Assembly: GCA_031551645.1 (NCBI GenBank)
Contig: JAVBNI010000001.1
Span: 10,902 to 74,901 of the forward strand
Origin: Bacteroidales bacterium
Lineage (GTDB): Bacteria; Bacteroidota; Bacteroidia; Bacteroidales; UBA4181
DNA length: 64,000 bases
Direction: 5' to 3'
Below, in pieces: positions 24,708 through 57,972 of the stretch. The notes below the pieces were generated by a model, which was not told the DNA's origin, ran no database searches, and was given only the letters and a program-made list of their open reading frames with translations. The position numbers were made by a program, and so were the translations under genes. The stretch's first letter is position 1; each line of letters opens with the position of its first letter.

Positions 24708-24748
24708 CTTATTTGATTTTTTAAATTTTCTTGTTTTTTATTTTAAGC

Positions 24749-24780
24749 CGCTGTCAGGGTCATCCGACCACTGACAGGGC
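24749..24780 (-). repeat. Conserved bulged hairpin (REP-like), copy B, between P2 and P1
   Basis: The plus strand reads cgCTGTCAGGGTC-atcc-GACCaCTGACAGggc. On the transcript (minus) strand it has the same sense as copy A. The stems are identical and only the loop differs. Confidence 0.6.
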
Positions 24781-24793
24781 AGGTTTATCTTTA

Positions 24794-25711: not shown

Positions 25712-25731
25712 TATCCTGATGTATTAATGGA

Positions 25732-26697: not shown

Positions 26698-27150
26698 TTT
26701 ATTTTCTTATTCGATTATAACAATAAATTCAAATTACCACATTATACGTTAAACTTTGTTTGAGGTTGCATTCTTCGAAAAATTTTCTTACTCTAAATGC
26801 TTTATTCAAATAACCATTATTTATTTTAGCCTGAAAACAAACAATTTACCAAACATCATATATAAAGGAAAAATCGACATTAATGTTCGAAACAAAGGCA
26901 TTCATACATCATTTTTGTTTATTCGTCATAATTTTCCGGACGTTGGTAAATTAATGTAAGGGAAACTCTTCTCCAACACAGGGTATGACAAGATGCTTGG
27001 AAGAAACCAATGATGGTTTAAACCTCCGGAATGAGTTGCAAAAATTTTATATCAGAAAGAAACAGTTCGTGCGCTTACACAAAATATATGCGTCCATTCA
27101 ATCGTAAGAATTTGTAAAATATATTGAAAGACAAACAGTAGTTTCAAATT

Positions 27151-27200
27151 ATCAATCCGTGTACGCACACAAAAAAATCTATTAATCCGTGTGTGCGCAC
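27151..27200. promoter_or_regulatory. Direct repeat of a 20-mer (ATYAATCCGTGTnnGCnCAC) with 30-bp spacing; the second copy holds the palindrome TGTGCGCACA
   Basis: atcaatccgtgtacgcacac (27151-27170) and attaatccgtgtgtgcgcac (27181-27200) match at 16 of 20 positions. They lie just 3' of the sensor-phosphatase stop codon and about 450-500 bp upstream of the P3 start codon. Confidence 0.35.
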
Positions 27201-27232
27201 AGCTTATAAAATGAAAGTATATCTAATCACAT

Positions 27233-30200
27233 TTAAACCCGGATGCCGATTAGCAGAACATCATCGACTTGATCAATATCCCCCTTCCAAAGGTCAAAGT
27301 TTTCTTTAATCACCCGATGTTGCTCGTCCATATTCCGGTTATGAATATCATTAAAAACATTTTGCAGCCGGTTCATTTTAAATTTCTTCCCTCCCGGGCC
27401 ACCAAATTGGTCGGCATATCCATCGGTAAACAAATAAATCACATCTCCTGGAGACAGTTGCATTTCCACCATTTCAAAGGATTTATTTTCCAGCACCTGC
27501 CCACCGATCGACGAACGGCTACCCTTATATGAAGTCGCAGCTCCATCGTGATAGACGACGAACGGACGCATGGCTGAGGCAATCTTTACCTGATGTGTTT
27601 CGGTATTGATTTCGCACACGGAAAGATCCATCCCATCATTCGCCTGTTCCGATTCCCGGTTTTGATTCAGCGTCGATTGAATATTTTCATCCAAACGATA
27701 GAGTATATCCAAAGGTGATCGAACGTCAGGACGTATGGCAATATCTTTAATAAGCGTAGTCCCGATAAGTGACATAAACGCTCCGGGAACACCGTGTCCG
27801 GTTGAATCGGCACAAACGATCAACAAGTTCTTGGTCTGTGGAAAATACTCAAACCAATAAAAATCACCGCTAACAATATCCCGGGGCCGGTAAAAAACGA
27901 ACGCTTCGGTACAATGCTCGAGTAACGTGCTGGTCGATGGCAACACACTGAATTGGATACGTTGGGCATAGTTGATACTATCGGTAATATCCCTGTTTTT
28001 GTTCTCGATCTCTTCTTTTTGTTCACGGACTTCTTTGGTTCGCGCAGCCAATTCCCGCTCCAGGTATTCCTGTTGTATCCGGTGGTTACGTTCCCTGACC
28101 ATGATAATCACGTACACAACACCCACCACAGCGCCTATTACCAGAATAGTAAACCACCATGATTTCCAGAAAGGCTTACGCACTTTCAATGAAAACAAAA
28201 GTGTTTTTTCGGTACAGTTATCACTATTGCAAGCTTTCACCCACAGCTTATAGTCTCCGTCTTCCAAACGGGGATAAGTCACAAAACCAGCATTTGACGG
28301 CGCCGACCATTCACTGTCATATCCTTCCAATATATATTGATAAGTCACTGATCCGGGGTTACGAAACTGTAATCCGATGAAATCGAACTGTACCTTATAA
28401 CGTCCATATGATAAAGTTACCGGTTGATATGGATTATAATTTTTTTCGCCAATCATCACATCGGTTAGATTCAACATCGGCGCCTGATTCTGGTTTTTAT
28501 CTGCAACCAGGTTATACACAAGTACCCCGTCGGTAAGCCCCACCAGCATTTCACCGCTATTGTTCACCAGCATTGCATTGGGGTTTACGTCACCGGTGAT
28601 ACCGACCTCGTGTCCGAACTGCATAATGGTATGCCGTTGAGTATTGATACGACTCATTCCCAAGCGATGTCCCGCCCATAGATGATCGTTGTCGTCAACA
28701 ACCATCGCATAGCAAAAATCGGATTTCAAACCATCAAGCGTCGTGAAGTGGTAAACCGTATCATGCGCTATGTCGAACATATAAATACCACGCCCAAGCG
28801 TCCCTGCCCAAAAATTTCCGTTGTTATCACTGGTAACAGTTGAAAATTCGATTTCACTTTCACCTTCAAGGGTGTATTTTTTGTCTTCATTAACTGCAAC
28901 AATTGAGTTGCTATTAGTTGCTATCCAAATAATATTTTCCCGGTCTTTATATATATCGCGGATATTGTTATGCGGCAATCCTTCGGAAGTGTTTTTTGCC
29001 TCAACCGCCCCGGTTTGCGTATTTACAATAATCACCCCATTACGCGATGCATACCATATCTTGCCGTCCAACGAAGTGATAGCCTGTATGGCATTGGACA
29101 AGGAATTCTCCGAACGATAAACTAAAAATACCTGATGGGTATCTTTAACCATTTTATAAAGGCCGCTTTTTTCGGTACCAATCCATAAATCACCTTTCGC
29201 ATCCGTGTGTAAAGCCGTAATCCTATCATTAGGCACCCCATTGGCACGTCCTAAAACAACCGTTTTTTGCTCGGATTTTGATGTTATCTTCATCATAACA
29301 CCTATACCTGCAACCCAATATTCGGAGTCGTCAACCGATAAAAGAGCTGTTGCATTATTACCGATCGACTCTGTATTTTCGAAAAACGAGATTGCCAGGT
29401 TGGTCAAACACGCCAAGCCTTGTCCGTAGGTACCTACCCAAAGGTTTTGTTGGTTATCAAAAAACACTTGCTTGACAAAATCAGTACCCAAGCCGTTCGT
29501 GCTGTTGTAATTGAATATTTTTCCAATAGTCAGATCCGGTGCATACCGTACCCTGAAAAGTCCTTCACCAAGAGTCGATATCCAAAGGCTGTTTTGTTCA
29601 TCCTCATAGATCGATTGTACCCGCGCATCTTCAAGGCTGGGAATATCCATTTTATGTACCATGTATTCGCTCCCTGTAAAACTGATATTAAATATGCCAT
29701 CATCCTCAGTAGCTACCCAGAAATTATGGGATTTCTTTTGCGGAATGATCGCCTGAACTGTCATTCCTGACAACTGATCCACAGCTGCGTTGAAATCTAG
29801 GTTTGAACGGTTTTTCTGATAATCGTAAATATACAATCCATCCTGGCAACCGATAAACATCCTGTTTTCATCAATAAAGCAAGCAGAATGAATCAACTTG
29901 TCTTCAAAACCTTGTGAAAGATATTCTACTTTCTGCCCGGTAATGCGTGTTATTCCTTCTGTCTGGGTCACAACCAAGATTTCACCCTTAGGCGCTTGTA
30001 TGATCTGGTTGACGGATGTATTGCTTTGCGAAGTATCAGCAGGGAAAAAGTTGTAACCATCATATTTCACAACAAGCCCATCATTATACCCGAACCACAC
30101 GTTACCGGTAGTATCTCTGAAAGCGGTTGTAACATTGGCTAACGGCAAATCGTTCTCTGGCGTTTCGAAGTTGAATCCATCGTAACGGCAAAGGCCCATC

Positions 30201-30376
30201 CCGGTGGCAAACCAGATAAAACCATGTTTATCCTGCGTAATGGAATAAATGGTATGGTGACAAATACCCTTATCGATACCATACTGTTGGAACTTATAAA
30301 TCTGGGCATAGTTGGTGTGGCATGGTAAAATAAGGATTCCCAGCAAGGCCACAAACAAAGCAACCGTGTTTCTCAT
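27233..30376 (-). CDS. Periplasmic beta-propeller/Y_Y_Y sensor fused to a cytoplasmic PP2C-type (SpoIIE) Ser/Thr phosphatase
   Basis: 1047 aa. After the signal come repeated two-component-regulator-propeller units (GFIWFATGMGLCRYDG, NLWVGTYGQGL, DLWIGTEKSGLY, NFWAGTLGRGIY). A Y_Y_Y domain follows (YQYILEGYDSEWS...YPRLEDGDYKLWVKA), then a TM helix (WWFTILVIGAVVGVVYVIIMV), a coiled coil, and a PP2C/SpoIIE domain (SGDFYWF...CADSTGHGVPGAFMS...NDGMDLSV...LFTDGYADQFGG). Confidence 0.85.
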   Translation of the reverse strand: MRNTVALFVALLGILILPCHTNYAQIYKFQQYGIDKGICHHTIYSITQDKHGFIWFATGMGLCRYDGFNFETPENDLPLANVTTAFRDTTGNVWFGYNDGLVVKYDGYNFFPADTSQSNTSVNQIIQAPKGEILVVTQTEGITRITGQKVEYLSQGFEDKLIHSACFIDENRMFIGCQDGLYIYDYQKNRSNLDFNAAVDQLSGMTVQAIIPQKKSHNFWVATEDDGIFNISFTGSEYMVHKMDIPSLEDARVQSIYEDEQNSLWISTLGEGLFRVRYAPDLTIGKIFNYNSTNGLGTDFVKQVFFDNQQNLWVGTYGQGLACLTNLAISFFENTESIGNNATALLSVDDSEYWVAGIGVMMKITSKSEQKTVVLGRANGVPNDRITALHTDAKGDLWIGTEKSGLYKMVKDTHQVFLVYRSENSLSNAIQAITSLDGKIWYASRNGVIIVNTQTGAVEAKNTSEGLPHNNIRDIYKDRENIIWIATNSNSIVAVNEDKKYTLEGESEIEFSTVTSDNNGNFWAGTLGRGIYMFDIAHDTVYHFTTLDGLKSDFCYAMVVDDNDHLWAGHRLGMSRINTQRHTIMQFGHEVGITGDVNPNAMLVNNSGEMLVGLTDGVLVYNLVADKNQNQAPMLNLTDVMIGEKNYNPYQPVTLSYGRYKVQFDFIGLQFRNPGSVTYQYILEGYDSEWSAPSNAGFVTYPRLEDGDYKLWVKACNSDNCTEKTLLFSLKVRKPFWKSWWFTILVIGAVVGVVYVIIMVRERNHRIQQEYLERELAARTKEVREQKEEIENKNRDITDSINYAQRIQFSVLPSTSTLLEHCTEAFVFYRPRDIVSGDFYWFEYFPQTKNLLIVCADSTGHGVPGAFMSLIGTTLIKDIAIRPDVRSPLDILYRLDENIQSTLNQNRESEQANDGMDLSVCEINTETHQVKIASAMRPFVVYHDGAATSYKGSRSSIGGQVLENKSFEMVEMQLSPGDVIYLFTDGYADQFGGPGGKKFKMNRLQNVFNDIHNRNMDEQHRVIKENFDLWKGDIDQVDDVLLIGIRV

Positions 30377-30510
30377 GATTCGTTACCTAATTTTTTAAGT
30401 ACTCGTTTATAAATAATCGACGTTTTTGCCTTGATGTATAATATTGATTTATGTAATTTGTTCGCCTGAATGGCGTAGTCGGACAGGCGCTCATTTTCAA
30501 TTCTCAACTA

Positions 30511-31509
30511 TTATTTGGCAGGACTTCCTTTCTTGCGCGCATTGATCGCGGGTTTATATTTTGGCACCCCACCAATAGGGCTGGCAAAGAATGGAAGTAA
30601 CTCATTACGTTGGTTACGCACATTGATTACCACGTTGTTGTTTTTAACCGGGGAATTTTTCCTTTTGATAAATTGGAAATCGAGCGATTTTCCTTTTTCT
30701 CCGTCCATAACAGCAAATTCACTTTCAGCCCATACGGCATCTTTCGATACGGTACAAAACTGTTCACGCCGGACTTCAGACGAAACACGAATTACCCCGT
30801 CGTCGTCCCAATCGAAATTTCCCTGCCTTACTTTGAGACATTCCTGGTCTATATAAGGATATATGTGTGACACTTGTTGGGGGTTATCATGCATACGAAA
30901 TGAATATTCGTATGCAAAAGCATTACCGCCCTCAATCGGGATATTTTCATTGGCCGATGTACTTAAAAAATAGCGGTACATGTTTCCGTCATCACCAGCG
31001 ATTCCATCGCAAATCACTTTGAAAACATAACAGCCGAACTTGGAATCGAATTCACCTTCGGTAGGGTTGAACGGCCCAAAAGTATACCATTTATTGTCGT
31101 ATTTCGGATCGACGCCAAATGTTTTAGTTGCCAGCAGGTTTCCACTTTTATAATTTCCTACGGGATCGACCCCCTTTGCGTCAGGATGTGACCACGCTTC
31201 CTTACCACCATATACGGAATACTGCATTTTGGTATCGAACACACCATTCAACTCATCATACATTCCACCGATATCGGGATCAAACACACGAATGAAAACC
31301 ATACCTTTATAAGTCTCGGGTACCTGGAAGAAAAATGTCTGTGAAAAATCATCATCACCCCACAAAATATCCGCTTTATTCCCAAAAGTCATCAAAAAAG
31401 GGATATTTTCTTCTTCCGAAGGAACGGCTTGCGCATGTAAACTAAATCCTATAAAAAGCAGAAAAACAGAAATAAAAAAACCTTTCACTTTCAAATAATT
31501 AAATTTCAA
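30511..31509 (-). CDS. Secreted protein of unknown function
   Basis: 332 aa with a signal peptide (FLLFIGFSLHAQA) and a basic C-terminal tail (KYKPAINARKKGSPAK). I recognise no family motif. It lies immediately upstream of the sensor-phosphatase on the same strand. Confidence 0.6.
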   Translation of the reverse strand: MKFNYLKVKGFFISVFLLFIGFSLHAQAVPSEEENIPFLMTFGNKADILWGDDDFSQTFFFQVPETYKGMVFIRVFDPDIGGMYDELNGVFDTKMQYSVYGGKEAWSHPDAKGVDPVGNYKSGNLLATKTFGVDPKYDNKWYTFGPFNPTEGEFDSKFGCYVFKVICDGIAGDDGNMYRYFLSTSANENIPIEGGNAFAYEYSFRMHDNPQQVSHIYPYIDQECLKVRQGNFDWDDDGVIRVSSEVRREQFCTVSKDAVWAESEFAVMDGEKGKSLDFQFIKRKNSPVKNNNVVINVRNQRNELLPFFASPIGGVPKYKPAINARKKGSPAK

Positions 31510-41263: not shown

Positions 41264-41644
41264 CTAACCTACGACCTCTATCATCTTAAAAGGTATGCGA
41301 ATGATGGACTCATAGTCTTGTCCGGCTTCCAGCATATCCTCATCGTCTTCGTCATAAAACCAATTAATAGTAACTCCCGAGTTTGCTTTTTGAATGGCTT
41401 CCAATTTCTTGAAGACATCCAGGATACATTTTGATGAACTGGTATTGAAATACTCCAATTGAATATTAACCTGTGTTTGGGGTTTAGCTTCTTTCGCATA
41501 AGCTTCGAGCCAATCGACCAAGGGCTTATAAAATTCAATGGAGTTTTCGGGGATTGAACGTCCTTTGATTTCGATCAAGCCTTTCGATGCATCAAAGCGC
41601 ACAGTTGGTGTTTTGGGAGTTCCTTCTATTGACAACGTGTTCAT
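41264..41644 (-). CDS. DUF1987 / SiaC-like partner-switching protein
   Basis: 126 aa. The sequence reads EGTPKTPTVRFDASKGLIEIKGRSIPENSIEFYKPLVDWL...IQLEYFNTSSSKCILDVF. By my count the Thr in FNTSS is residue 68. Confidence 0.8.
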   Translation of the reverse strand: MNTLSIEGTPKTPTVRFDASKGLIEIKGRSIPENSIEFYKPLVDWLEAYAKEAKPQTQVNIQLEYFNTSSSKCILDVFKKLEAIQKANSGVTINWFYDEDDEDMLEAGQDYESIIRIPFKMIEVVG

Positions 41645-41664
41645 ACTTTATAATTTTATGCTAA

Positions 41665-42216
41665 TTACACTAAAACAAAAATATCTAATCTGTAAAAATA
41701 ATACGAATCATTATACTGATAAAACTGATATCCAAGTTTTTCTTCCGATTTCCTTGCAATATCAATTAAGCCCAACCCCCCTCCTCCTTTGGATGACAGC
41801 TTCTGGTAATTGAGAATAAATTTATACATTTCTTTTAATTCTTCAGTAGACAATGAATTGAGTTTCTCAATTTTTTCGGAAAGAAACTTTACTTTATCCA
41901 CTGCCACAAAATTACCCACTGTCAATTGATATTTACCCTCCAGCTTTTTGATGATGACCATTCCATATTTTTTATCTAAAGTCTCCACCAAATCGGCTGG
42001 TACATCATCCGAATGATGATAAAGATTTTGAAGGCATTCTACCATAACATTATAGATTTTTTTTCTCACTTTGAGATCTGTTGATGTCTCAGCTAATTTT
42101 TCTTCTATATCCGTCAAGATGGTATTAATCTGCTCAGACGATATATCCCCTCCATACGCAAAAAAAACATCACCCCCACAAATTTCGGCAAACAACTGAT
42201 TAATATCAAAGCTCAT
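41665..42216 (-). CDS. SiaB-like (DUF6272) GHKL-fold protein kinase
   Basis: 183 aa with the motifs YNVMVECLQNLYHH and SSKGGGGLGLIDIARKS. It lies 20 bp upstream of the DUF1987 gene. Confidence 0.7.
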   Translation of the reverse strand: MSFDINQLFAEICGGDVFFAYGGDISSEQINTILTDIEEKLAETSTDLKVRKKIYNVMVECLQNLYHHSDDVPADLVETLDKKYGMVIIKKLEGKYQLTVGNFVAVDKVKFLSEKIEKLNSLSTEELKEMYKFILNYQKLSSKGGGGLGLIDIARKSEEKLGYQFYQYNDSYYFYRLDIFVLV

Positions 42217-42257
42217 AAAGACCCTTTATGAAAGAATAAAATCCTAAATATTGGTTA

Positions 42258-42265
42258 CAAATATA
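42258..42265 (-). promoter_or_regulatory. Bacteroidota -7 promoter box (TAnnTTTG on the minus strand)
   Basis: The plus strand reads CAAATATA, i.e. TATATTTG on the minus strand. It lies 42 bp upstream of the SiaB-like start codon. Confidence 0.4.
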
Positions 42266-42391
42266 CATCTTTTATACGGAAATAATGACACAAGGTTACA
42301 TCACCCTGTGTAAAAAATAAAACATATTAAAAAATGTATTGTTGAATCAGTGTTTAAAAACGGCTGAAGGAGCGCTATTAAAATAATGGAG

Positions 42392-42419
42392 AATTGAAAA
42401 TTGAAAATTGAGAATGAAT
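42392..42419 (+). repeat. Tandem heptamer array (AATTGAN x4)
   Basis: The array reads aattgaa aattgaa aattgag aatgaat. It lies in the divergent SiaB / ABC intergenic region. Confidence 0.7.
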
Positions 42420-42768
42420 ACAAATTTCATTAAATCAGTACTATATATTTTTAAAATGGTGATTATTTATCAGCAAGTATTTAAATGAACAATATATGCG
42501 CAAACCATTAAAAATAGAATAATTTGTCATGCAAAAACAAATCCTCTTCTGACTATGAAGATAAAATTCGTATACACAACTGGTTGATAGGCTTTAACAA
42601 TCAATATCAAAGTAAACTTAAAAAATAAGTCGGAAAATAAGAAACATTATTCCTTTTTTTTCGTAAAACGAGGTGATATTTTTTATCAAAAACCGGCTTG
42701 GTTTGTTTATGTCAGTGTGCAGATAAATACTATTTCGAGAAAGTTACATATAAAGAGGTAATCTTAAT

Positions 42769-45700
42769 ATGAGTGAAGAAATTTTAAGGGCGTTGATGCA
42801 ACTGTTTGCATTAATTGTTAAGCAAGATGAAGGGGTCTTAAGCGGTGAACGTGCTTATGTTGAGAGTTTTCTCAACCAGCAACTGAATCAGGAAACCGCC
42901 AACGAGTACCTCAAATTGTTTGACAAGCAGTCCTCGACCGATGAAGACAAAGATGCCGATCCGGAAAAAAAAGTGAAACTGACATCCGTAAAAGATTCGG
43001 TACGGGTACTGGGAATCTGCCGGAAAATCAATAAAACTCTGACACAGGAACAAAAGGTAGTATCGTTGGTACGTTTGTTCGAATTGGTGAATGCCGACCG
43101 GCGGTTTACCGACCAGCGCATGGCAATCATCAATACGGTAGCGGAGGTTTTCAAGGTTTCAAAAGAAGAATTCCAGCACATCGAAACTTTTGTATTAAAA
43201 AACAAACCCGAAGAACTGGATCTATCGGATATTCTGATAATCAGCAGTGATAAGGCTGCTTGCCAAAACGCAAAACATATCGGTACGGAAGAATTACAAG
43301 GAATGATTGTTATTCTACGTGTTCCGAGTGTCGACCTCTATTTTCTCAAATACACAGGCAATGAGTCCCTTTTCCTCAATGGATTGGGATTGAACAAGCG
43401 CCGCATTTACCTGTTTGCCAGCGGTAGTACAGTAAAATTACCCAAAGGTAAACCAGTATATTACAGCGACGTAGTAGCCCATTTCCTAGCCGATCTCACC
43501 GCAAACAAGATTTCGTTCGAGGTAAAAAACCTTGATTTCAAATTCCCCAATGGCGCTACCGGCCTCCGCAACATCAGCTTTACCGAAGGACATGGCAAGC
43601 TTATTGGTATCATGGGAGCCAGTGGCGCTGGAAAGACGACACTGTTAAATGTGTTGTGCGGATTGGAAAACCCCTCGAAAGGCGAAGTTTTGATCAACGG
43701 CATCAATCTGCATACCGAAAAGGAAAAACTCGAAGGCGTAATCGGCTATATCCCGCAGGATGATTTGTTGATTGAGGAGTTGACTGTATTCGAAAACCTT
43801 TACTACAATGCCAAACTCTGTTTCCGTGACAAAACCGAAGAGGAATTGGTGGTATTGGTAAACAAGACATTGAACAGCCTGGGGTTGTACGATCGTAAGG
43901 ATCTGAAAGTGGGATCGCCACTAAACAAGACAATCAGCGGCGGACAACGTAAGCGTTTGAATATTGCTTTGGAATTGTTGCGCGAACCATCTATTCTTTT
44001 TGTAGATGAACCGACATCGGGCTTATCGTCCAGCGACTCCGAAAATGTGATGGACCTCCTCCGCGAACTGGTGCTGAAAGGAAAACTGATTTTCGTGGTC
44101 ATTCACCAGCCTTCATCCGATATCTACAAGATGTTCGACAAGATGATCATACTCGACACGGGCGGTTATATGATATATTATGGTAACCCTGTCGAAGCGG
44201 TGATGTATTTCAAACGTGCCGACGAACAGATCAACAGCGATGTGGGCGAATGCCAGGTGTGCGGGAACGTGAATCCTGAGCTGATATTCAATATCATAGA
44301 GGCAAGAGTGGTTGACGAATTCGGCCGCTATACCAACAAGCGCAAAAAATCGCCACCGGAATGGGAAGATTTATATCAGAAAAATTTTGTTCCCGAAGCG
44401 CAGGATGATATCCAAGAAAAACCACCTAAGGCGCTGAATATTCCCAACTGGTTCAAACAATTGCGCATTTATACCGTCCGCGATTTCTTCTCGAAAATAA
44501 GCAACAAGCAATATCTCTTGCTTACCATGCTCGAAGCGCCCGTATTGGGATTCATACTGGCATATGTAATCCGTTACATCGCCGACCCCATGTCGAACGT
44601 GTATATTTTCCGCGAAAACGAGAATGTACCCATTTTTATCTTCATGAGTCTCATTGTATCCCTGTTCCTGGGCTTGATCGTGAGTGCCGAAGAAATATTC
44701 CGCGACCGTAAAATCCTGAAACGGGAAGCTTTTCTTAATCTGAGTAAGTCAAGTTATCTCGTTTCCAAAGTTTTGATACTAATCACAATATCTGCCATTC
44801 AGGCTTTACTTTTTGTATTGATTGCCAACACTATCCTGGAAGTAAAAGGAATGTATTTTGCTTACTGGCTGGCATTATTTTCTACGGCAGTATTTGCCAA
44901 CGTATTGGGATTGAATATCTCCGCTTCGTTCAACTCGGCTGTAACCATCTATATCATCATCCCTCTGTTGATGATCCCGATGATGGTACTCAGCGGCGCC
45001 ATGTTCAGCTTCGACAAACTGAACCGTAACGTCGGGAGTGTCAACAAAGTACCACTGGTTGCCGAATTCATGGTAACACGTTGGTCGTATGAGGCGTTGA
45101 TGGTGCATCAATATAAGGACAACAAGTTCGAAAAGTATTTTTATGATATTGAAAAACGTGAAAGTATAGCCGATTTTCGCCAGGTATATCTGATCCCTGA
45201 ATTGGAAAAACGATTTAACCAGTGCTATGATGAATTGACAGAAACCGGTAAAATTGAGAAAAGCAAAAACGCTTTGCTAGTGTTGTATAACGAAGTGAAA
45301 AAGGAGTTGGCTGCGAATCCTGCAGCTCAATATGATCTTTCGTTACTGACGCCTGCAAAATTTGATCTTGATGCTGCTTTCAACCTTCAGGATTTCATCA
45401 ACCTGATGGAAAAACATTATATGGAGCAATTTGCTCTGGCCAATGGGGAAAAAGAACGTGTAATCGGGTTTATGCTGGAAAAGAATGCCGAAGCATACAA
45501 CCGGCTGAAAAATACATATCAGAATGAGCACCTGGGCGAAATTGCAAAAAAATCGTTTGAAAAAAACAAGATATTGGAATTCGACCATGAAATGGTACAG
45601 CAAATCGATCCGATATATATGGATCCAACCACTACCGGACTGGTCAATGTACGTACCCATTTTTTCGCTCCAAGGAAATATTTTGCAGGAACCTTCTTCG

Positions 45701-45822
45701 ACACTTATTGGTTTAATATTAGCGTGATTTGGTTCTTCTCGATCATATTATACATCATGTTGTATTTTGATGTGTTGAAACGGTTGATGAATATGTTTAG
45801 CAATATACAATTCAAGAAATAA
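42769..45822 (+). CDS. Fused ABC transporter: TerB-like N-domain, uncharacterised linker, ABCG-type ATPase, ABC-2 permease and a long C-terminal extension
   Basis: 1017 aa. It carries Walker A GASGAGKTT, the signature ISGGQRKRL, Walker B ILFVDEPTSGL and the H-loop VIHQPS (ABCG/White-like). About six TM helices span residues roughly 590-790, followed by a helical segment of about 200 aa and a final TM. The N-terminus ILRALMQLFALIVKQDEGVLSGERAYVESFL looks TerB-like. Confidence 0.8.
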   Translation: MSEEILRALMQLFALIVKQDEGVLSGERAYVESFLNQQLNQETANEYLKLFDKQSSTDEDKDADPEKKVKLTSVKDSVRVLGICRKINKTLTQEQKVVSLVRLFELVNADRRFTDQRMAIINTVAEVFKVSKEEFQHIETFVLKNKPEELDLSDILIISSDKAACQNAKHIGTEELQGMIVILRVPSVDLYFLKYTGNESLFLNGLGLNKRRIYLFASGSTVKLPKGKPVYYSDVVAHFLADLTANKISFEVKNLDFKFPNGATGLRNISFTEGHGKLIGIMGASGAGKTTLLNVLCGLENPSKGEVLINGINLHTEKEKLEGVIGYIPQDDLLIEELTVFENLYYNAKLCFRDKTEEELVVLVNKTLNSLGLYDRKDLKVGSPLNKTISGGQRKRLNIALELLREPSILFVDEPTSGLSSSDSENVMDLLRELVLKGKLIFVVIHQPSSDIYKMFDKMIILDTGGYMIYYGNPVEAVMYFKRADEQINSDVGECQVCGNVNPELIFNIIEARVVDEFGRYTNKRKKSPPEWEDLYQKNFVPEAQDDIQEKPPKALNIPNWFKQLRIYTVRDFFSKISNKQYLLLTMLEAPVLGFILAYVIRYIADPMSNVYIFRENENVPIFIFMSLIVSLFLGLIVSAEEIFRDRKILKREAFLNLSKSSYLVSKVLILITISAIQALLFVLIANTILEVKGMYFAYWLALFSTAVFANVLGLNISASFNSAVTIYIIIPLLMIPMMVLSGAMFSFDKLNRNVGSVNKVPLVAEFMVTRWSYEALMVHQYKDNKFEKYFYDIEKRESIADFRQVYLIPELEKRFNQCYDELTETGKIEKSKNALLVLYNEVKKELAANPAAQYDLSLLTPAKFDLDAAFNLQDFINLMEKHYMEQFALANGEKERVIGFMLEKNAEAYNRLKNTYQNEHLGEIAKKSFEKNKILEFDHEMVQQIDPIYMDPTTTGLVNVRTHFFAPRKYFAGTFFDTYWFNISVIWFFSIILYIMLYFDVLKRLMNMFSNIQFKK

Positions 45823-45855: not shown

Positions 45856-46764
45856 ATGATAAACAAATTGTTGTCTGTCATTGTTTTCGTAGCGTTTGTC
45901 ATGCAGGTAAGTTCATGCACCTGTAGCCGGACTAAATCAAACACAGATGAGTTCGACATTCCCGACTCGATTCGTAACACATCGTTGAAAGTCTCGGATA
46001 ATGTGATGCAGGAAATGGTTGGCAATATCTCGTCGCCTATCGAGATGGCATCACTTATCAAAAGTCTGGGAGTTCCGTTCTCACAAAAATATCTGGCTAC
46101 GACCAAGAATGTGTCGACCTATAACACGAGTTATGCAAAAGCCTTTAACCTGGGTATTTTTGGCGCTGACCTTGGTTTCCTGAACATGTACGGTAAAACG
46201 TCGATGGTATTGGATTATATCACCGCAATGAAAAATCTGGCAGATGGTATTAACGTCGGACAGTTTTTTGATTTTTCGACACTAAAACGATTGGCGACCA
46301 ACAACCAGAATATTGACTCATTGGTGTATATTTCGCAGCAAAGTTTCAATAAAATGGACAAATATCTCCAAAAAAATAATCGGGGAAATTTGAGTATCCT
46401 AATGGTAAGCGGGGTTTGGATGGAAGGGCTGTATCTTTCATGCCAGTTTTATAAGGAAACCCACAACACACGGTTGGCTGAAAGTATTGGTGAGCAAAAA
46501 ATACTGCTTAACCAATTGTTGATTATTCTGAAAAATTACCAGAGCGAAAAATATATTGCTGACTTGATTTCCGATCTGGAGCCTCTCAAAAAGATTTATG
46601 AGGATATCCGTATCACGATTGAAAAAGGCGAACCGCAAGCCGTAGAGGTTGATGGTATGTTAACCATCGTCCAGACCGAAACCAGTACAGTACATTACAC
46701 TGAGGAACAAATGAACGATCTTGTTGTCCAATCAGAAGTAATACGCAGTAAATTGATTAAGTAA
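45856..46764 (+). CDS. Lipoprotein of unknown function (predicted helical)
   Basis: 302 aa with a lipobox (MQVSSC). It lies 33 bp downstream of the ABC gene. No motif recognised. Confidence 0.6.
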   Translation: MINKLLSVIVFVAFVMQVSSCTCSRTKSNTDEFDIPDSIRNTSLKVSDNVMQEMVGNISSPIEMASLIKSLGVPFSQKYLATTKNVSTYNTSYAKAFNLGIFGADLGFLNMYGKTSMVLDYITAMKNLADGINVGQFFDFSTLKRLATNNQNIDSLVYISQQSFNKMDKYLQKNNRGNLSILMVSGVWMEGLYLSCQFYKETHNTRLAESIGEQKILLNQLLIILKNYQSEKYIADLISDLEPLKKIYEDIRITIEKGEPQAVEVDGMLTIVQTETSTVHYTEEQMNDLVVQSEVIRSKLIK

Positions 46765-46827: not shown

Positions 46828-47274
46828 ATGAAAAAGATATTATTCCTGTCGTTATTCTTATTTACTATAACGTTTGCTTCGCAGACAGTCAAAGCGCAAA
46901 CAGAAGCCCAAAAGGTTGACTTATGTACCAAGGCTGCCGGTGATGTCACATTCATGTCTGATTATAGTGCACAATTGGCGGCTGCAAAAGATGGGGAACG
47001 TGCACCTACTTTTAAAAAGGCATTGGCTCTCCGCAAAGGAAACCGTTATCGTCTGACCATTTGTACAGATGAAGAATCGGCAGGTGAAGGTGTAATGCAA
47101 TTATATGATGAAAATAAAATGATGGGGAGTTCGTATTACCCGGAAACAGGTAAGGAATACCAGAGTTTCGATTTTGATTGCCAGAAAACGGCAGTATATA
47201 TATTGTTTATATCTTTTAAAGACGGAAAGGAGGGTTCGGCCACCGTAATACTCTCCCACGTCAAAACCCTTTAG
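46828..47274 (+). CDS. Small secreted protein of unknown function
   Basis: 148 aa with a signal peptide (TITFASQTVKAQ) and two Cys pairs. It is followed by a strong terminator. Confidence 0.6.
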   Translation: MKKILFLSLFLFTITFASQTVKAQTEAQKVDLCTKAAGDVTFMSDYSAQLAAAKDGERAPTFKKALALRKGNRYRLTICTDEESAGEGVMQLYDENKMMGSSYYPETGKEYQSFDFDCQKTAVYILFISFKDGKEGSATVILSHVKTL

Positions 47275-52762: not shown

Positions 52763-54025
52763 TTAATTTCCGAAATCGTCGAACGCCAACATTTCCTGCG
52801 GAACGCCGAGGTTGTCGAGCATCTTGATGACGGCGGCAGCCATCGGGCCGGGACCGCACATGTAATATTCGATATCTTCGGGCGCCTCGTGCTTGCTCAG
52901 GTAATTGTCGTAAATCACCTGGTGGATAAAGCCCACATAACCCGTCCAATTGTCTTCGGGACGCGGTTCGCTCAATGCGATATTGAACGTAAAATTCGGG
53001 AATTCCTTTTCGATAGCCCGGAAATCTTCTTCATAGAAGATCTCATTTTTAGAACGAGCACCATACCAGTACGACACCTTACGATCGGTTGTTTTCAACG
53101 TATGGAACAGGTGGAACAGGTGCGAACGCAACGGAGCCATACCGGCGCCGCCGCCGATGTATAACATTTCGCGTTTGGTATCCTTGATGAAGAATTCACC
53201 GTAAGGCCCGGAAACAGTCACCTTGTCACCCGGCTTACGCGAGAAAATGTATGACGAGCAAACCCCCGAAGGCACATTCGCCCAGTTGCATTTGGGCCTA
53301 TCCCACGGCGGTGTGGCGATACGAATATTCAGCATCACGATATTGCCTTCAGCCGGATGGTTGGCCATGGAGTACGCACGGTAAGTTTCCTCGGTATTGG
53401 TCATTTTCAAATCCCACAATTTGAATTTGTCCCACTCGGCGCGGAAACGTTCGTCGACGTCTATGTCCTTAAAATTCATACTGTATTGCGGCACATCAAT
53501 CTGGATGTATCCGCCCGACTTGAAATTGAGTTTCTCACCTTCGGGCAACTTCACCACAAACTCCTTGATGAACGAAGCCACATTCCGGTTCGATACTACT
53601 TCACATTCCCATTTCTTGATACCCATCACTTCTTCGGGCACATGTATCTTCATGTCATTGCGAACCTTCACCTGGCAACCCAAACGCCAATCCTGTTGTA
53701 TCTGTTTACGGGTAAAGAAACCCACTTCGGTAGGCAGGATCGTTCCACCGCCTTCCACTACCTGGCATTTACACATACCGCAAGTACCACCTCCACCGCA
53801 TGCCGACGGTAAGAAAATTTTCTGTGCCGACAAGGTTGCTAAAAGCGATGATCCTGGCGCAGCATCTACCTTATCTTCCCCTTCATTAATATCGATGGTT
53901 ACGTTTCCCAGGGGCACTAGTTTCTTTTTGGCATACAGCAATAATATAACCAAAAACAAAATGGCTATCAGGAATACAACCATGCTCGTGACGATAGTGG
54001 TCATTTGTGAGGCTAACAAAATCAT
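52763..54025 (-). CDS. nqrF: Na+-translocating NADH:quinone oxidoreductase subunit F
   Basis: 420 aa. It has an N-terminal TM helix, a [2Fe-2S] motif ([12 protein letters not shown]), FAD-binding RAYSMAN and NADH-binding GGGAGMAP. Confidence 0.95.
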
Positions 54026-54064
54026 TGTCTATAATCTTTGAATTTTTGAATTTGGAATCTTGAA

Positions 54065-54682
54065 TTACAATTTAATCCCCATGAAACTCATAAATGCAAT
54101 AGCCATCAGGCCGGTAGTGATGAACGTAATGCCAAGGCCTTTGAGAGGCTCGGGAATTTGCGAATAACTCATCTTTTCGCGGATGGCAGCCAAACCAATG
54201 ATCGCCAACCACCAACCGATGCCGGAACCGAGTGCGTATGAAGTAGCTTCGCCGATATTGAGGAACTCGCGCTCCTGCATGAACAGCGATGCCCCCATGA
54301 TGGCGCAGTTTACTGCAATTAACGGGAGGAAAATACCCAACGATGAATAAAGCGCCGGGGCAAACTTTTCAACAACCATTTCCACCAATTGCACCATGGC
54401 GGCGATAACGGCAATGAACATGATAAAACTCAGGAAGCTGAGGTCTACGTCAGCGAACGAAGAGCCTAACCATGACAACGCACCGGCTTTCAGTATATAG
54501 TTTTCCAACAAATAGTTGACCGGAACAGTAATCAACAACACGAAAGTAACTGCGATCCCAAGCCCCATCGATGTTTTCACCGTTTTGGATACTGCCAGGT
54601 ACGAACACATACCCAGGAAGTATGCAAAAATCATGTTGTCGATAAAAATCGACTTGATAAAAATGTTAACTATATTTTCCAT
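54065..54682 (-). CDS. nqrE: Na+-NQR subunit E
   Basis: A polytopic RnfA/NqrE-like protein. I place the start at the ATG at 54682 ([26 protein letters not shown]...) rather than the ORF-track start at 54736, which adds 18 atypical residues. Confidence 0.9.
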
Positions 54683-54757
54683 TCTTTTTAATTGTATATT
54701 GTTGATTGAAAATTGAATATTACAGCCAACATGCAATATTCATTAATCAATATTCAA

Positions 54758-55384
54758 TTATTTCTTCGCTTCCTTCGTATTTGCCCTTTGTATCCAGATA
54801 ATCACACCCACAATGATCAATGCCATCGGTGGGAGGATGATCAGGTTGTTGTTGTGGTAACCAAAATCGTAGAATGCCTGAGGTATGATTTTAATTCCCA
54901 GCAAGGTGCCCGAACCGAGCAACTCGCGCACGAAAGCCACGATCACCAGGATCAGTCCGTAACCAGCGCCACTTCCAATACCGTCCAGGAACGAGGGCCA
55001 CGGCTTGTTGGCCATAGCAAAAGCTTCCAAACGGCCCATGATGATACAGTTGGTAATGATCAACCCCACGAATACTGACAATTGCTTGCTCACATCGTAG
55101 GCATAAGCCTTCAATATCTGGTCGACAATAATTACCAATGCGGCAATCACCACTAATTGCACAATGATACGGATACTATTGGGTATAAAGTTACGAATGC
55201 TCGATATAATCAGGTTTGAGAATCCCGTTACGGCTGTCACCGACAAGGCCATCACCAATGCAGGTTCGAGTTTCACCGTTACGGCCAACGCCGAACAAAT
55301 CCCCAATACCTGTATCGTCACCGGGTTGTTGGTGATGATGGGTTCGAATAACGGTTTAAGTTTTTTTGATGAAAATACGCTCAT
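54758..55384 (-). CDS. nqrD: Na+-NQR subunit D
   Basis: 208 aa, a polytopic RnfE/NqrD-like protein ([18 protein letters not shown]). Its position between nqrC and nqrE fits. Confidence 0.9.
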
Positions 55385-55386
55385 TT

Positions 55387-56091
55387 TCAGTTCGATTTAT
55401 GTTGTGAAAAATAAGTCTGGTAAGGTTCGAGGCTGTTAAACATCATCGCTTCAAGTCCCTTGCTGGTGATGGTTCCGCCCGAAATAGCGTCCACTGTGTG
55501 ATCGTCAGGCATATAAGTCCCAATTTTTTCCACTTTTATGGAAACGAACTTGTTCGAGCTGTCGAACAATTTTTTGTTTTGAAACTGATGTTCAAAGGGA
55601 GTGGTATTGATTTCCGCTCCCAAACCCGGCGTTTCGCCTTTATGGTCAAACGTAGTACCATACACCGTGTTCATATCGTTTGCCACAGCAACATTGCCCC
55701 AAATCGGTCCCCATAATCCCGTTCCCCTTACGGGAATCACCACAAACGACTTACCATCCTTTTCGGCAAGATATACCGGTAATAAACGTTCATTTTCAGG
55801 CTTTGCATTTTCTTTTTTCAGGTCGATCTTTTCGGGCGTTTCGCCGCTCACCGTGCTGCCATCGGCTTTGATCACAATACCTTGCTTGATGTATTGCGGG
55901 TATTTCGTCAACACGTCAGCCGGGGTCGATTCCACACCCAGAGCAGCCAAAATATTTTGTTGGCGCTCGATTTCGATATTCTCTTGCTGCTTATCCGCCA
56001 ACGAAAGTGATGTAAAGGATAAGGCTGCTGCCACCAACAGCACCAGCGCCGAAGAGAAGCAAAATATATACAGATTACTAAATTGTTTCAT
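55387..56091 (-). CDS. nqrC: Na+-NQR subunit C
   Basis: 234 aa with a single N-terminal TM helix and the FMN attachment motif [12 protein letters not shown]. Confidence 0.9.
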
Positions 56092-56134
56092 TTTTATCTT
56101 GTTACAATTCTTTCTTAATATTTAATTCTTCATA

Positions 56135-56491
56135 TTATGACTCATACGTTTGTTCAATATCGCCAAGCAACTTGTCAACACCCACTCTAAGTTTAGGCAG
56201 GTGGTAGATTACGATGCCCCAAACGGTTTCGTTGCTTACATTATCGTAGGCGTGAATGACCCGATTGCGTAAACTCACTATTTTCCTTGCATTGTCAATG
56301 ACAATACTTGAATCAAGTTGAAGAATCTTGCTTACAGCTTCGCCTATAATCTCCAATTCACGCTCTACGGAACGGCGCAATTGTTTGTTTGCCATATATG
56401 TGTCAAAATTACGCTGTTCGCCCAAATACTCATAGATGGAATCAATCGAGGTACGAATATCAAACAAATATTTTTGAATTTTAAGCAGCAT
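56135..56491 (-). CDS. hepT: HepT-like (DUF86) toxin of a type VII toxin-antitoxin pair
   Basis: 118 aa. The Rx4HxY motif is present (LRNRVIHAYDNV). It overlaps the upstream NTase gene by 11 bp. Confidence 0.8.
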   Translation of the reverse strand: MLLKIQKYLFDIRTSIDSIYEYLGEQRNFDTYMANKQLRRSVERELEIIGEAVSKILQLDSSIVIDNARKIVSLRNRVIHAYDNVSNETVWGIVIYHLPKLRVGVDKLLGDIEQTYES

Positions 56492-56789
56492 ATATCAGCT
56501 GTTTTGTTTGTTCGATACTGCGGATAAAATAGGGATTGGTCAACGTTTTTTCGACAACTAAATCTACATTTCGACCGAAAAGTTCTTCAAGTTCGAACAT
56601 CAGGTCAAAATAATTGTCGGCATATTCATTCAAACCAACATCATTCCGAAATGAGATCAAGAAGTCGATATCGCTGTTTTCATTGAAAGCATCGGTATTC
56701 GCCGACCCAAATACATACATCGTCGTCACGCGATACTTTTTACAAAGCACCATTACTTGCGGAATTTTATCTGCTATAATGCGTTTCAT
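56481..56789 (-). CDS. mntA: MntA-like minimal nucleotidyltransferase antitoxin
   Basis: The GSx10DxD motif is present (FGSANTDAFNENSDIDF). The ORF-track start at 56795 is a TTG, so I prefer the ATG at 56789 (MKRIIADK...). Confidence 0.8.
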   Translation of the reverse strand: MKRIIADKIPQVMVLCKKYRVTTMYVFGSANTDAFNENSDIDFLISFRNDVGLNEYADNYFDLMFELEELFGRNVDLVVEKTLTNPYFIRSIEQTKQLIYAA

Positions 56790-56818
56790 TCTCAATTCTC
56801 AATTCTCAATTCTCAATT
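56788..56818 (-). repeat. Tandem heptamer array (GAATTGA/AATTGAG x4 on the coding strand) filling the nqrB-mntA junction
   Basis: The minus strand reads ...GTCAGTAAT TGA gaattgagaattgagaattgaga ATG. The nqrB stop codon (56813-56815) is the first TGA of the array, and the mntA ATG (56787-56789) directly follows the last unit. Confidence 0.8.
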
Positions 56819-57970: not shown

Positions 57971-57972
57971 CG

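What the first reader, a model, noticed from the sequence alone, without database searches (positions are those of the whole stretch)
41264..42216. SiaB/SiaC-like partner-switching pair with the phospho-Thr position conserved but no diguanylate cyclase output
The 126-aa DUF1987 protein carries the motif YFNTSS, with the Thr at residue 68 by my count. I recall this as the position of the SiaB-phosphorylated Thr in Pseudomonas aeruginosa SiaC. The adjacent 183-aa protein looks like the SiaB kinase (GGGGLGLIDIARKS). In Pseudomonas the module (SiaA PP2C, SiaB, SiaC) controls the cyclase SiaD. Here there is no GGDEF gene in the window, and the only PP2C is 11 kb away, fused to a periplasmic sensor. 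The target that the unphosphorylated SiaC-like protein binds is therefore unknown. The neighbouring divergent ABC operon is the obvious candidate by position.
Basis: partly seen in the sequence, partly recalled or inferred. Interest (0 to 1): 0.7.

Follow-up and report, generated by a model that had tools for sequence, protein, structure and literature searches.

The report
Sia-type phospho-switch beside an ABC exporter
A Bacteroidales genome carries the kinase and phosphoprotein of the Pseudomonas SiaABCD biofilm switch without its diguanylate cyclase, and comparison across genomes points to a neighbouring ABC exporter with an unusual TerB plus FHA-like regulatory head as the likely output.

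Summary
41264-41644(-) is a SiaC/DUF1987-family protein, and its Thr68 aligns without gaps to the SiaB-phosphorylated Thr68 of P. aeruginosa SiaC. 41665-42216(-) is a SiaB-family kinase above the NCBIfam subfamily cutoff. No window ORF of 150 aa or more has a GGDEF domain. The only PP2C (27233-30376) is a periplasmic-sensor fusion.

TerB-ABC genes recur beside SiaB/SiaC pairs in 9 of 22 pair loci. The pair lies directly beside 6 of 8 TerB-ABC loci chosen blind to context. Three arrangements exist: convergent, divergent (this window) and a full operon, cheR-cheB-GAF/PAS/PP2C-siaB-siaC-ABC, where the ABC gene sits where siaD sits in Pseudomonas. The window is a recombinant: an alpha-clade pair next to a beta-clade exporter.

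The exporter's cytoplasmic head is a TerB domain plus an FHA-like fold that lacks canonical phosphothreonine-binding residues.

The window's PP2C domain is SiaA-like, but it sits in its own conserved T9SS-related cluster, so its cognate role is unproven.

Physical interaction, kinase activity and transported substrate are all untested. I rate this a new variant of a known kind, of moderate to good interest.

The parts
41264..41644 (-). SiaC-family (DUF1987) phospho-acceptor protein, 126 aa. The Thr68 codon is at 41441-41443. N67, T68 and S69 are all present.
   Evidence: Pfam PF09345 E 5.4e-46. PDB SiaC 6kko_C E 1.6e-19, ungapped. The NCBIfam SiaC equivalog scores 104 bits against a cutoff of 150, so it is a family member and not the equivalog. 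Position 68 is T in 23 and S in 4 of 27 sequences. Its 90%-identity cluster has 119 members.
41665..42216 (-). SiaB-family GHKL-like protein kinase, 183 aa, 20 nt upstream of the SiaC-like gene and probably co-transcribed with it.
   Evidence: PF19788 E 1.1e-37. NF038262 148.9 bits, above the cutoff of 85; SiaB equivalog 67 bits, below 225. PDB SiaB 6kko_A E 7e-9. The N-box (VECLQN) and G2-box (GLGLIDIARKS) are conserved across 69 homologues.
42217..42768 (.). A 552-bp AT-rich divergent intergenic region between the switch pair and the exporter operon. It contains an AATTGAA x3.4 tandem repeat at 42392-42415.
   Evidence: Sequence. TRF. No Rfam family.
42769..45822 (+). ABCG/ABC-2-type exporter half-transporter, 1017 aa, and the proposed output. 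Cytoplasmic TerB-like domain: residues 3-150 (nt 42775-43218). FHA-like beta domain: residues 155-235 (nt 43231-43473). NBD: residues 266-417. TM1-5: residues 583-741. A ~240-aa loop follows, then TM6 at 984-1002.
   Evidence: Pfam TerB, ABC_tran and ABC2_membrane. AF2 model of residues 1-260, pLDDT 85.7. The top Foldseek hits are FHA domains, plus TerB-like 2h5n. Walker A, signature, Walker B and H-loop are intact. It recurs next to SiaB/SiaC pairs.
45856..46764 (+). Conserved 302-aa accessory lipoprotein of the exporter operon (helical bundle plus beta-hairpin; no family assignment).
   Evidence: 52% identical to the gene after the ABC gene in L069. 2141 homologues, all named hypothetical. 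AF2 pLDDT 76.7 with no significant PDB fold match. No Pfam or NCBIfam hit.
46828..47274 (+). Conserved 148-aa secreted accessory protein of the exporter operon.
   Evidence: 41% identical (E 8.5e-33) to the 145-aa gene at the same position in L069. No Pfam hit.
27233..30376 (-). Candidate, unproven SiaA-like phosphatase. Periplasmic Reg_prop/Y_Y_Y sensor, a TM segment, then a cytoplasmic PP2C domain (nt 27236-27832).
   Evidence: Pfam. The PP2C domain's only PDB hit at E<=0.01 is SiaA-PP2C 6k4e, E 1.2e-28 (identity of 6K4E confirmed). It is 37-39% identical to the PP2Cs encoded directly upstream of siaB in L051, L052 and L061. Against: its orthologues sit in their own conserved cluster without Sia genes.

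Best explanation
The two genes form a SiaB/SiaC-type partner switch. The SiaB-like GHKL kinase phosphorylates Thr68 of the SiaC-like protein, and a PP2C phosphatase removes the phosphate. The phosphorylation state decides whether SiaC binds its target. Here the target is not a diguanylate cyclase. It is most likely the neighbouring ABCG-type exporter (42769-45822, with its two accessory envelope proteins), contacted through its cytoplasmic TerB plus FHA-like N-terminal module. By analogy with Pseudomonas, unphosphorylated SiaC would bind and switch the transporter's activity. The sensor-PP2C at 27233-30376 is the best candidate phosphatase in the window. Shown here: the family memberships, homology and conservation of the phospho-site, absence of GGDEF, recurrent gene linkage to the TerB-ABC in three architectures, and the fold of the exporter's head. 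Inferred: kinase and phosphatase activities, the physical SiaC-exporter contact, its polarity, and which phosphatase is cognate.
For: Family and site. The literature says SiaB phosphorylates SiaC T68 and SiaA removes the phosphate. pT68 blocks target binding, and N67/T68/S69 form the binding surface (PMC8457831; PMC7278518). Linkage from the SiaB side: 22 species-level loci have an adjacent SiaB+SiaC pair, and 9 of them have a TerB-ABC within 5 kb (6 of the 10 with at least 4 kb of flank on both sides). Linkage from the ABC side: a TerB-region profile found about 1000 proteins. Architectures differ. Eleven loci are convergent. The window is divergent. L069, L076, L051 and L052 have a co-directional siaB-siaC-ABC row with a PP2C gene upstream (directly upstream of siaB in L069, L076 and L052), and L069/L076 show the full cheR-cheR-cheB-x-GAF/PAS/SpoIIE-siaB-siaC-ABC-~300aa-~150aa row, with the ABC gene starting 41 nt after siaC. 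The window is a recombinant: alpha-clade SiaB/SiaC (50-52% and 70-83% identity to alpha; 32-41% and 42-48% to beta) beside a beta-clade ABC (55-66% to beta; 38-43% to alpha). That makes it an independent juxtaposition. No other non-housekeeping neighbour recurs. No GGDEF motif occurs in any locus. SiaC is far more conserved than its partners (119-member 90% cluster against singletons; 83% against 51% identity), as expected for a hub that contacts kinase, phosphatase and target. The exporter's head has a protein-interaction fold (FHA-like). There is a precedent for an FHA-ABC exporter controlled by Ser/Thr phosphorylation: Rv1747/PknF (PMC3138270). The PP2C domain is SiaA-like.
Against: There is no direct evidence of interaction; everything about the output rests on gene neighbourhood. 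The closest relatives of the window's pair (L001-L005; SiaC 86-90% identical) have no TerB-ABC in the available flanks. L011, L012, L015, L036, L059 and L061 also lack one. The convergent (alpha) loci share housekeeping synteny (guaA-S41-pnuC-nadR-rlmL), so they count as roughly one evolutionary event. One TerB-ABC locus (L066) has no pair within 10 kb. In the window the pair and the exporter are divergently transcribed, not one operon. The FHA-like domain lacks the canonical pThr-binding residues and has no Pfam FHA match, so its role is open. The candidate PP2C sits in a different conserved cluster, and only 64 kb of the genome is visible.
Confidence: 0.55

Rival explanations
1. The pair is a genuine SiaB/SiaC switch, but its target is encoded elsewhere. 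One candidate is the T9SS cargo/PorP cluster that travels with the sensor-PP2C. Another is an alpha-clade TerB-ABC outside the window. On this view the adjacency to this exporter is inherited or accidental synteny.
For: The closest relatives L001-L005 keep the pair without an adjacent ABC. The window's pair is alpha-clade while the adjacent exporter is beta-clade, so its ancestral partner would be an alpha ABC. The alpha loci share housekeeping synteny. The PP2C is embedded in a conserved HK-CHU_C-PorP/SprF-PD40/PKD-~325aa-PP2C cluster.
Against: Chance adjacency of a two-gene unit to a one- or two-copy gene family is roughly 0.1% (my estimate), yet it occurs in three different architectures and from both search directions. 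No alternative neighbour recurs.
Confidence: 0.2
2. Reversed polarity: phospho-Thr68 SiaC, not the unphosphorylated form, docks onto the exporter's FHA-like domain. The kinase would then switch the output on, the opposite of Pseudomonas.
For: The top 26 Foldseek hits of the exporter head are FHA domains, which are classical pThr readers. Rv1747's FHA domains read phosphorylation by PknF (PMC3138270).
Against: In the only sequence-level alignment to an FHA domain (Mek1, E 0.17), the canonical S-x-N-G-T loop corresponds to G-S-E-E-L. The window protein also lacks an Arg after the conserved Gly (GMIV). There is no Pfam FHA match. T68 sits at the N-terminus of a helix in a folded domain, whereas FHA domains usually bind extended peptides (my knowledge).
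Confidence: 0.12
3. The SiaB-like kinase acts directly on the exporter by phosphorylating its TerB-FHA head or linker, in the manner of PknF and Rv1747. SiaC would then be a competing substrate or antagonist rather than the effector.
For: L021 has a DUF6272 kinase-like gene directly upstream of the accessory-accessory-ABC operon, with no SiaC-like gene within 10 kb. A large 'solo' DUF6272 clade exists (41 loci).
Against: Only 1 of 41 solo loci is next to a TerB-ABC. In Pseudomonas, SiaB binds SiaC but not SiaD (PMC7278518). The disordered linker at residues 59-71 of the head is not conserved.
Confidence: 0.08
4. The pair is an orphaned, decaying remnant of a SiaABCD-like operon with no current function.
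For: There is no adjacent phosphatase or cyclase in the window.
Against: Both ORFs are intact. Catalytic motifs and the phospho-site are conserved. The SiaC-like protein is more than 90% identical across 119 database sequences.
Confidence: 0.03

Closest known systems
SiaABCD partner-switching system of Pseudomonas aeruginosa (PA0172-PA0169)
   Same: SiaB-family kinase and SiaC-family phosphoprotein in the same gene order (siaB then siaC). Thr68 and the N67/S69 surface are conserved. A SiaA-like PP2C catalytic domain is fused to a membrane sensor. Related Bacteroidota loci keep the full PP2C-siaB-siaC-output gene order.
   Different: There is no GGDEF cyclase; the inferred output is an ABC exporter. 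Neither protein reaches the NCBIfam equivalog cutoffs. In the window the PP2C is 11 kb away in another gene cluster and carries a Reg_prop/Y_Y_Y periplasmic sensor. In related operons the PP2C is cytoplasmic GAF-PAS and is preceded by CheR/CheB genes.
Rv1747/PknF of Mycobacterium tuberculosis (FHA-domain ABCG-type exporter regulated by Ser/Thr phosphorylation)
   Same: An ABC-2/ABCG-type exporter with an N-terminal cytoplasmic FHA-fold regulatory module, encoded next to a protein kinase.
   Different: Rv1747 has two canonical pThr-binding FHA domains and a Hanks-type kinase that phosphorylates the transporter's own linker. Here there is one non-canonical FHA-like domain plus a TerB domain, a GHKL-type kinase and a separate phosphoprotein intermediary.
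RsbV/RsbW, SpoIIAA/SpoIIAB and HsbA/HsbR STAS-type partner switches
   Same: The same logic: a small phosphoprotein, a GHKL-type kinase and a PP2C phosphatase. The literature describes DUF1987 as structurally related to STAS. Some TerB-ABC loci carry an Hpt plus STAS pair upstream (L067, L068, L070, L075).
   Different: The phosphoprotein is DUF1987, not STAS. There is no sigma factor or anti-sigma function in view.
Cyanobacterial slr1658/slr1659 superfamily (NCBIfam NF047703/NF047705)
   Same: Distant sequence similarity of both proteins (E about 1e-3, far below the cutoffs).
   Different: They are not members (19 bits against a cutoff of 100). No functional description was found in the searchable literature.

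Membership tests
SiaC family (Pfam PF09345, DUF1987) | Profile match above the curated cutoff | tested here: met
   155.6 bits against a cutoff of 24.5, covering 119 of 120 profile positions
SiaC family (Pfam PF09345, DUF1987) | Phospho-acceptor Thr homologous to SiaC T68, with the flanking N67 and S69 | tested here: met
   Ungapped alignment to 6kko_C/6k4f. Position 68 is T or S in all 27 aligned sequences; Y65, F66, N67 and S70 are nearly invariant
SiaC proper (NCBIfam equivalog NF038265) | Score above the equivalog cutoff | tested here: not met
   104.2 bits against a cutoff of 150
SiaB family kinase (NCBIfam NF038262; Pfam DUF6272) | Profile match above the subfamily cutoff | tested here: met
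   148.9 bits against a cutoff of 85; PF19788 129 bits against 26.6
SiaB family kinase (NCBIfam NF038262; Pfam DUF6272) | GHKL-type N-box and glycine-rich ATP-lid motif | tested here: met
   VECLQN and GGGGLGLIDIARKS align to SiaB and are conserved in 69 homologues
SiaB family kinase (NCBIfam NF038262; Pfam DUF6272) | Phosphorylates the partner's Thr68 | not testable with these tools
   Needs an in vitro kinase assay
SiaB proper (NCBIfam equivalog NF038264) | Score above the equivalog cutoff | tested here: not met
   67.1 bits against a cutoff of 225
SiaABCD system | GGDEF diguanylate cyclase (SiaD) as the co-encoded output | tested here: not met
   No GGDEF domain in any window ORF of 150 aa or more. 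No GG[DE]EF motif in 74 related loci
SiaABCD system | PP2C phosphatase (SiaA) encoded in the same operon | tested here: not met
   Absent next to the pair in the window. It is present directly upstream of siaB in L069, L076 and L052, and one gene further upstream in L051 and L061. A SiaA-like PP2C lies 10.9 kb away
FHA domain (Pfam PF00498) | FHA beta-sandwich fold | tested here: met
   AF2 model with pLDDT above 90 over residues 155-235. The top 26 Foldseek PDB hits are FHA domains, with probability about 1 but weak E-values of 6e-3 to 0.1
FHA domain (Pfam PF00498) | Canonical pThr-binding residues (GR, SxxH, the N of SxNG) and a profile match | tested here: not met
   No Pfam hit at E<=0.5. 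The S-x-N-G-T loop aligns to G-S-E-E-L in the Mek1 alignment
ABC-2/ABCG-type exporter | NBD with intact Walker A, signature, Walker B and H-loop, followed by an ABC2_membrane domain | tested here: met
   Pfam ABC_tran 116 bits and ABC2_membrane 71 bits. Motifs at residues 283, 389, 409 and 444; six predicted TM segments
Known anti-phage defence systems (PADLOC) | Match of any component to a defence-system model | tested here: not met
   Only generic ABC-ATPase similarity for the exporter; nothing for the other six proteins

The most novel reading that the evidence does not exclude
Bacteroidota, which here show no diguanylate cyclase near these genes, have rewired the Sia partner switch to gate an ABC exporter directly. 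In the most novel version, the exporter's FHA-like domain is a degenerate phospho-reader that docks phospho-Thr68 SiaC. The kinase would then switch the output on rather than off. This would be the first case of a partner-switch phosphoprotein acting through an FHA-type module on a transporter.
Probability: 0.12. Interest if true: 0.8.

Novelty: new variant of a known kind. Interest (0 to 1): 0.58.

Why it matters
Partner switches are known to control sigma factors, diguanylate cyclases and secretion. The only SiaC-family output characterised so far is the cyclase SiaD. This locus, and about a thousand TerB-ABC relatives in Bacteroidota, give a concrete and testable alternative: post-translational gating of an ABC exporter through a TerB plus FHA-like head, without c-di-GMP. 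It assigns a working hypothesis to four uncharacterised families: DUF6272 in Bacteroidota, the TerB-FHA-like ABC exporter, and its two accessory proteins. The operon-type loci also supply the complete gene set (sensor PP2C, kinase, phosphoprotein, exporter) needed to reconstitute the system. The transported substrate, and therefore the physiology, remains unknown.

Tried and rejected
I replaced it with a protein search plus eight context look-ups.

It was rebuilt from window and database sequences.

(3) Pfam at E<=0.5 found nothing for exporter residues 140-260, its C-terminal 140 aa, the 148-aa accessory protein or the 154-aa ORF of L066.

(4) The AF2 model of the 302-aa lipoprotein (pLDDT 76.7) gave no significant PDB fold match (best E 0.9). 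This gave no clue to the substrate.

(5) Rfam found no RNA family anywhere in the window.

(6) PADLOC gave no defence-system assignment.

(7) I looked for Hpt/STAS genes in the window, because they flank some TerB-ABC loci. There are none.

(8) I looked for other recurrent outputs next to pairs. The neighbours were PolA, ClpB, MatE, FadL, a T9SS cargo protein, a TonB receptor and NrfD, and none recurs.

(9) I considered that the sensor-PP2C might be encoded next to Sia genes elsewhere. It was not in three divergent genomes.

(10) Literature: DUF1987 appears in a single paper and DUF6272 in none. The slr1658/slr1659 papers give no function.

(11) I rejected the idea that the FHA-like domain is a canonical pThr reader.

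Full report
**Observation**

- The 126-aa product of 41264-41644(-) matches Pfam SiaC/DUF1987 end to end (E 5.4e-46).
- It aligns without a single gap to the crystallised P. aeruginosa SiaC (6kko_C/6k4f, E 1.6e-19). This puts its EYFN-T68-SS on LYLN-T68-SS.
- The Thr68 codon is window 41441-41443.
- The literature held here confirms three things. SiaB phosphorylates SiaC at Thr68 and SiaA removes the phosphate. pThr68 blocks binding to the cyclase SiaD. N67/T68/S69 form the binding surface (PMC8457831; PMC7278518; bioRxiv 10.1101/674879).
- The 183-aa product of 41665-42216(-) matches DUF6272 (1.1e-37). It passes the NCBIfam SiaB-family subfamily cutoff (148.9 against 85) and aligns to solved SiaB, including the glycine-rich lid.
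- Neither protein reaches the equivalog cutoffs for SiaC or SiaB proper. They are family members, not orthologues in the strict sense.

Pfam scans of all real ORFs of 150 aa or more found no GGDEF domain. The only PP2C is the 1047-aa protein at 27233-30376(-). It has a signal/TM segment, periplasmic Reg_prop and Y_Y_Y domains, a TM at 736-754 and a cytoplasmic SpoIIE domain.

**Surroundings**

The pair is a two-gene unit with a 20-nt gap. It is convergent with an amidohydrolase gene and divergent, across 552 bp, from a three-gene unit:

- a 1017-aa TerB + ABC_tran + ABC2_membrane protein (42769-45822);
- a 302-aa lipoprotein (45856-46764);
- a 148-aa secreted protein (46828-47274).

The exporter's ATPase motifs are intact. 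It has five TM segments, a ~240-aa loop and a sixth TM.

**Comparative genomics from the kinase side**

A scan of one genome per GTDB species with the SiaB-like protein returned 64 loci, all but one titled as Bacteroidota (L007 is a Chlorobiota MAG). I called ORFs, clustered them and drew gene maps.

- 22 loci have an adjacent SiaB+SiaC pair.
- In 9 of these a TerB-ABC lies within 5 kb. That is 6 of the 10 loci with at least 4 kb of flank on both sides.
- Position 68 of the SiaC-like proteins is Thr (23) or Ser (4) in all 27 aligned sequences. Y65, F66, N67 and S70 are nearly invariant.
- No other non-housekeeping neighbour recurs.
- No GG[DE]EF motif occurs in any ORF of the 74 fetched loci (a crude test).

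**Comparative genomics from the exporter side**

A profile of the exporter's first 250 residues found about 1000 proteins. I picked eight on long contigs, blind to context.

- Six have DUF6272 and SiaC genes directly next to the ABC gene (L068, L070, L071, L075, L069, L076).
- One contig ends right after the ABC gene (L067).
- One has no pair within 10 kb (L066).

**Architectures**

- Alpha: guaA-S41-pnuC-nadR-rlmL-siaB-siaC, convergent with the ABC gene. There are eleven loci, but they share housekeeping synteny and so count as roughly one event.
- Beta: cheR-cheR-cheB-x-(GAF-PAS-SpoIIE)-siaB-siaC-ABC-~300aa-~150aa on one strand. The ABC start codon lies 41 nt after siaC (L069, L076). L051 and L052 show the siaB-siaC-ABC row up to a contig end, with a PP2C gene upstream. 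L061 has the upstream part but no ABC gene in view. Here the exporter sits exactly where siaD sits in Pseudomonas, and the SiaA-like PP2C is in the operon.
- The window: divergent.

Pairwise identities show that alpha and beta are separately co-inherited sets of all three proteins. The window mixes them:

| Window protein | Identity to alpha | Identity to beta |
|---|---|---|
| SiaB-like | 50-52% (41% to L013) | 32-41% |
| SiaC-like | 70-83% | 42-48% |
| ABC head (first 250 aa) | 38-43% | 55-66% |

The two accessory genes are also beta-type (52% and 41% identity to L069). The window's juxtaposition is therefore a third, independent association. I take this as the strongest single argument that the linkage is functional rather than inherited. 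I estimate chance adjacency to a one- or two-copy gene family at about 0.1%.

**The exporter's head**

An AF2 model of residues 1-260 (pLDDT 85.7) shows a helical TerB-like domain (3-150) and a beta domain (155-235).

- Foldseek against the PDB returns FHA domains as its top 26 hits (Mek1, CEP170, Rad53, EssC). Probabilities are near 1, although E-values are weak (6e-3 to 0.1). It also returns the TerB-like PG1108.
- At sequence level there is no Pfam FHA match.
- In the only alignment to a solved FHA domain (Mek1, E 0.17), the canonical S-x-N-G-T loop corresponds to G-S-E-E-L.

I therefore describe it as an FHA-like fold without the canonical phosphothreonine-binding residues. The nearest functional precedent is Rv1747 of M. 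tuberculosis, an FHA-bearing ABCG-type exporter positively regulated by the adjacent kinase PknF (PMC3138270).

**The phosphatase**

- The window PP2C domain's only PDB match at E<=0.01 is SiaA-PP2C (6k4e, 1.2e-28; identity of 6K4E confirmed).
- The operon-encoded PP2C of L069 gives the same top hit (2.9e-35).
- The window domain is 37-39% identical to the PP2Cs next to siaB in L051, L052 and L061.

However, orthologues of the whole sensor-PP2C in three divergent genomes lie in their own conserved cluster: histidine kinase, CHU_C T9SS cargo, PorP/SprF, PD40/PKD, a ~325-aa protein, then the PP2C. No Sia genes lie within 10 kb. The window holds the same pieces at 21533-31509; the 332-aa ORF at 30511-31509 is 54-64% identical to those ~325-aa proteins. 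I therefore treat it as the best candidate in view, at roughly one chance in three, not as established.

**Mechanism proposed**

SiaB-like phosphorylates Thr68 of SiaC-like, and a SiaA-like PP2C reverses this. Unphosphorylated SiaC-like binds the TerB/FHA-like head of the exporter and changes its activity.

- Shown: homology, site conservation, linkage and folds.
- Inferred: every biochemical step, the interface, the polarity and the cognate phosphatase.

Supporting the idea of a hub protein, the SiaC-like protein is far more conserved than its partners. Its 90% cluster has 119 members, while the other three are singletons. Against L008 it is 83% identical, compared with 51% for the kinase.

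**Weaknesses**

- The closest relatives of the pair (L001-L005) show a GH109-like oxidoreductase upstream of the pair and no ABC gene in the available flanks.
- Several other pairs also lack an adjacent exporter.
- One exporter locus lacks the pair.
- Nothing is known about the substrate. The lipoprotein model matched no solved fold.

**Comparison and novelty**

The switch works like SiaABC and belongs to the SiaB and SiaC families. It fails the defining system features of SiaABCD: it has no cyclase, no in-operon phosphatase in this window, and scores below the equivalog cutoffs. In the searchable literature DUF1987 occurs in a single paper. That paper only speculates that DUF1987 proteins modulate adjacent proteins. 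DUF6272 occurs in none. I rate it a new variant of a known kind.

**Scores**

- Confidence in the switch itself: about 0.85.
- Confidence in the exporter as output: about 0.55.
- Interest: 0.58.

Noticed in passing
window 21533-31509 (- strand); L072, L073, L074: The sensor-PP2C belongs to a gene cluster conserved across divergent Bacteroidota: ~1220-aa histidine kinase, CHU_C T9SS cargo protein, PorP/SprF, PD40/PKD protein, ~325-aa secreted protein of no known family, then the PP2C. The window has PorP/SprF (21533-22558), a CHU_C protein (22567-23643), the PP2C, and the 332-aa ORF (30511-31509; 54-64% identical to its counterparts). No phosphoprotein substrate is encoded in the cluster.
   Followed up: partly
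window 23784-24707, 24794-25711, 25732-26697 (- strand): Three tandem, weakly paralogous secreted proteins of about 305-321 aa (24-32% identity, E 1e-6 to 1e-22). None has a Pfam match. They lie between the PP2C and the CHU_C/PorP genes.
   Followed up: partly
L019-L050, L053-L058, L062-L064 (41 loci in all): A large, well-conserved 'solo' clade of DUF6272 kinase-like proteins (about 70-75% identical to each other, 35-39% to the window protein). GHKL motifs are intact, but no SiaC-like gene lies within 10 kb. About 23 of these loci place it after proS, a 233-aa unknown and an M49-like peptidase. In L021 it sits directly upstream of the accessory-accessory-TerB-ABC operon.
   Followed up: partly
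L067 9198-9887; L068 3945-4641; L070 4443-5141; L075 8141-8830: An Hpt protein plus a STAS protein are encoded 0.1-5 kb upstream of alpha-type TerB-ABC genes. This is a second partner-switch-like pair, reminiscent of HptB/HsbA, near the same exporter. No homologue is present in the window.
   Followed up: partly
L069 3173-8962; L076 1-8960; L052, L061: Beta-type operons begin with two CheR methyltransferases and a CheB methylesterase ahead of the GAF-PAS-PP2C. This suggests a methylation-based input to the phosphatase. No MCP gene was listed in the stretches shown (Pfam rows for L069 and L076 only).
   Followed up: no
L017 3288-5231; L051 7938-9918; L052 1536-3040 and 8982-9957: Some genomes carry tandem or duplicated SiaB/SiaC pairs. 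L051 has the order siaC-siaB-siaB-siaC.
   Followed up: no
window 42392-42415: An AATTGAA x3.4 tandem repeat lies in the divergent intergenic region between the switch pair and the exporter operon. It could be a regulatory site or mean nothing.
   Followed up: no
window 42769-45822, residues 745-983: The exporter has a ~240-aa predicted loop between TM5 and TM6 with no family match. Given the ABC-2 topology it is presumably periplasmic, and it may work with the two accessory envelope proteins.
   Followed up: no
(P0003, P0010, P0013, P0015, P0045, P0055, P0075, P0109): All eight TerB-ABC gene calls taken from long contigs are split into two or three ORFs. This is probably due to assembly frameshifts. 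It explains why the protein search listed only 230-440-aa fragments of a ~1020-aa protein.
   Followed up: no
window 1521-7274 and 52763-59322: Ordinary Bacteroidota content: a SusC-like TonB receptor with FecR and an ECF sigma factor at 1.5-7.3 kb, and an NqrA-F operon at 52.8-59.3 kb. The closest SiaB relatives are Bacteroidales MAGs (isolate names Kf353, Rs511, Nc350, Cc175, Hs463) that I take, from memory and untested, to be from termite guts.
   Followed up: no
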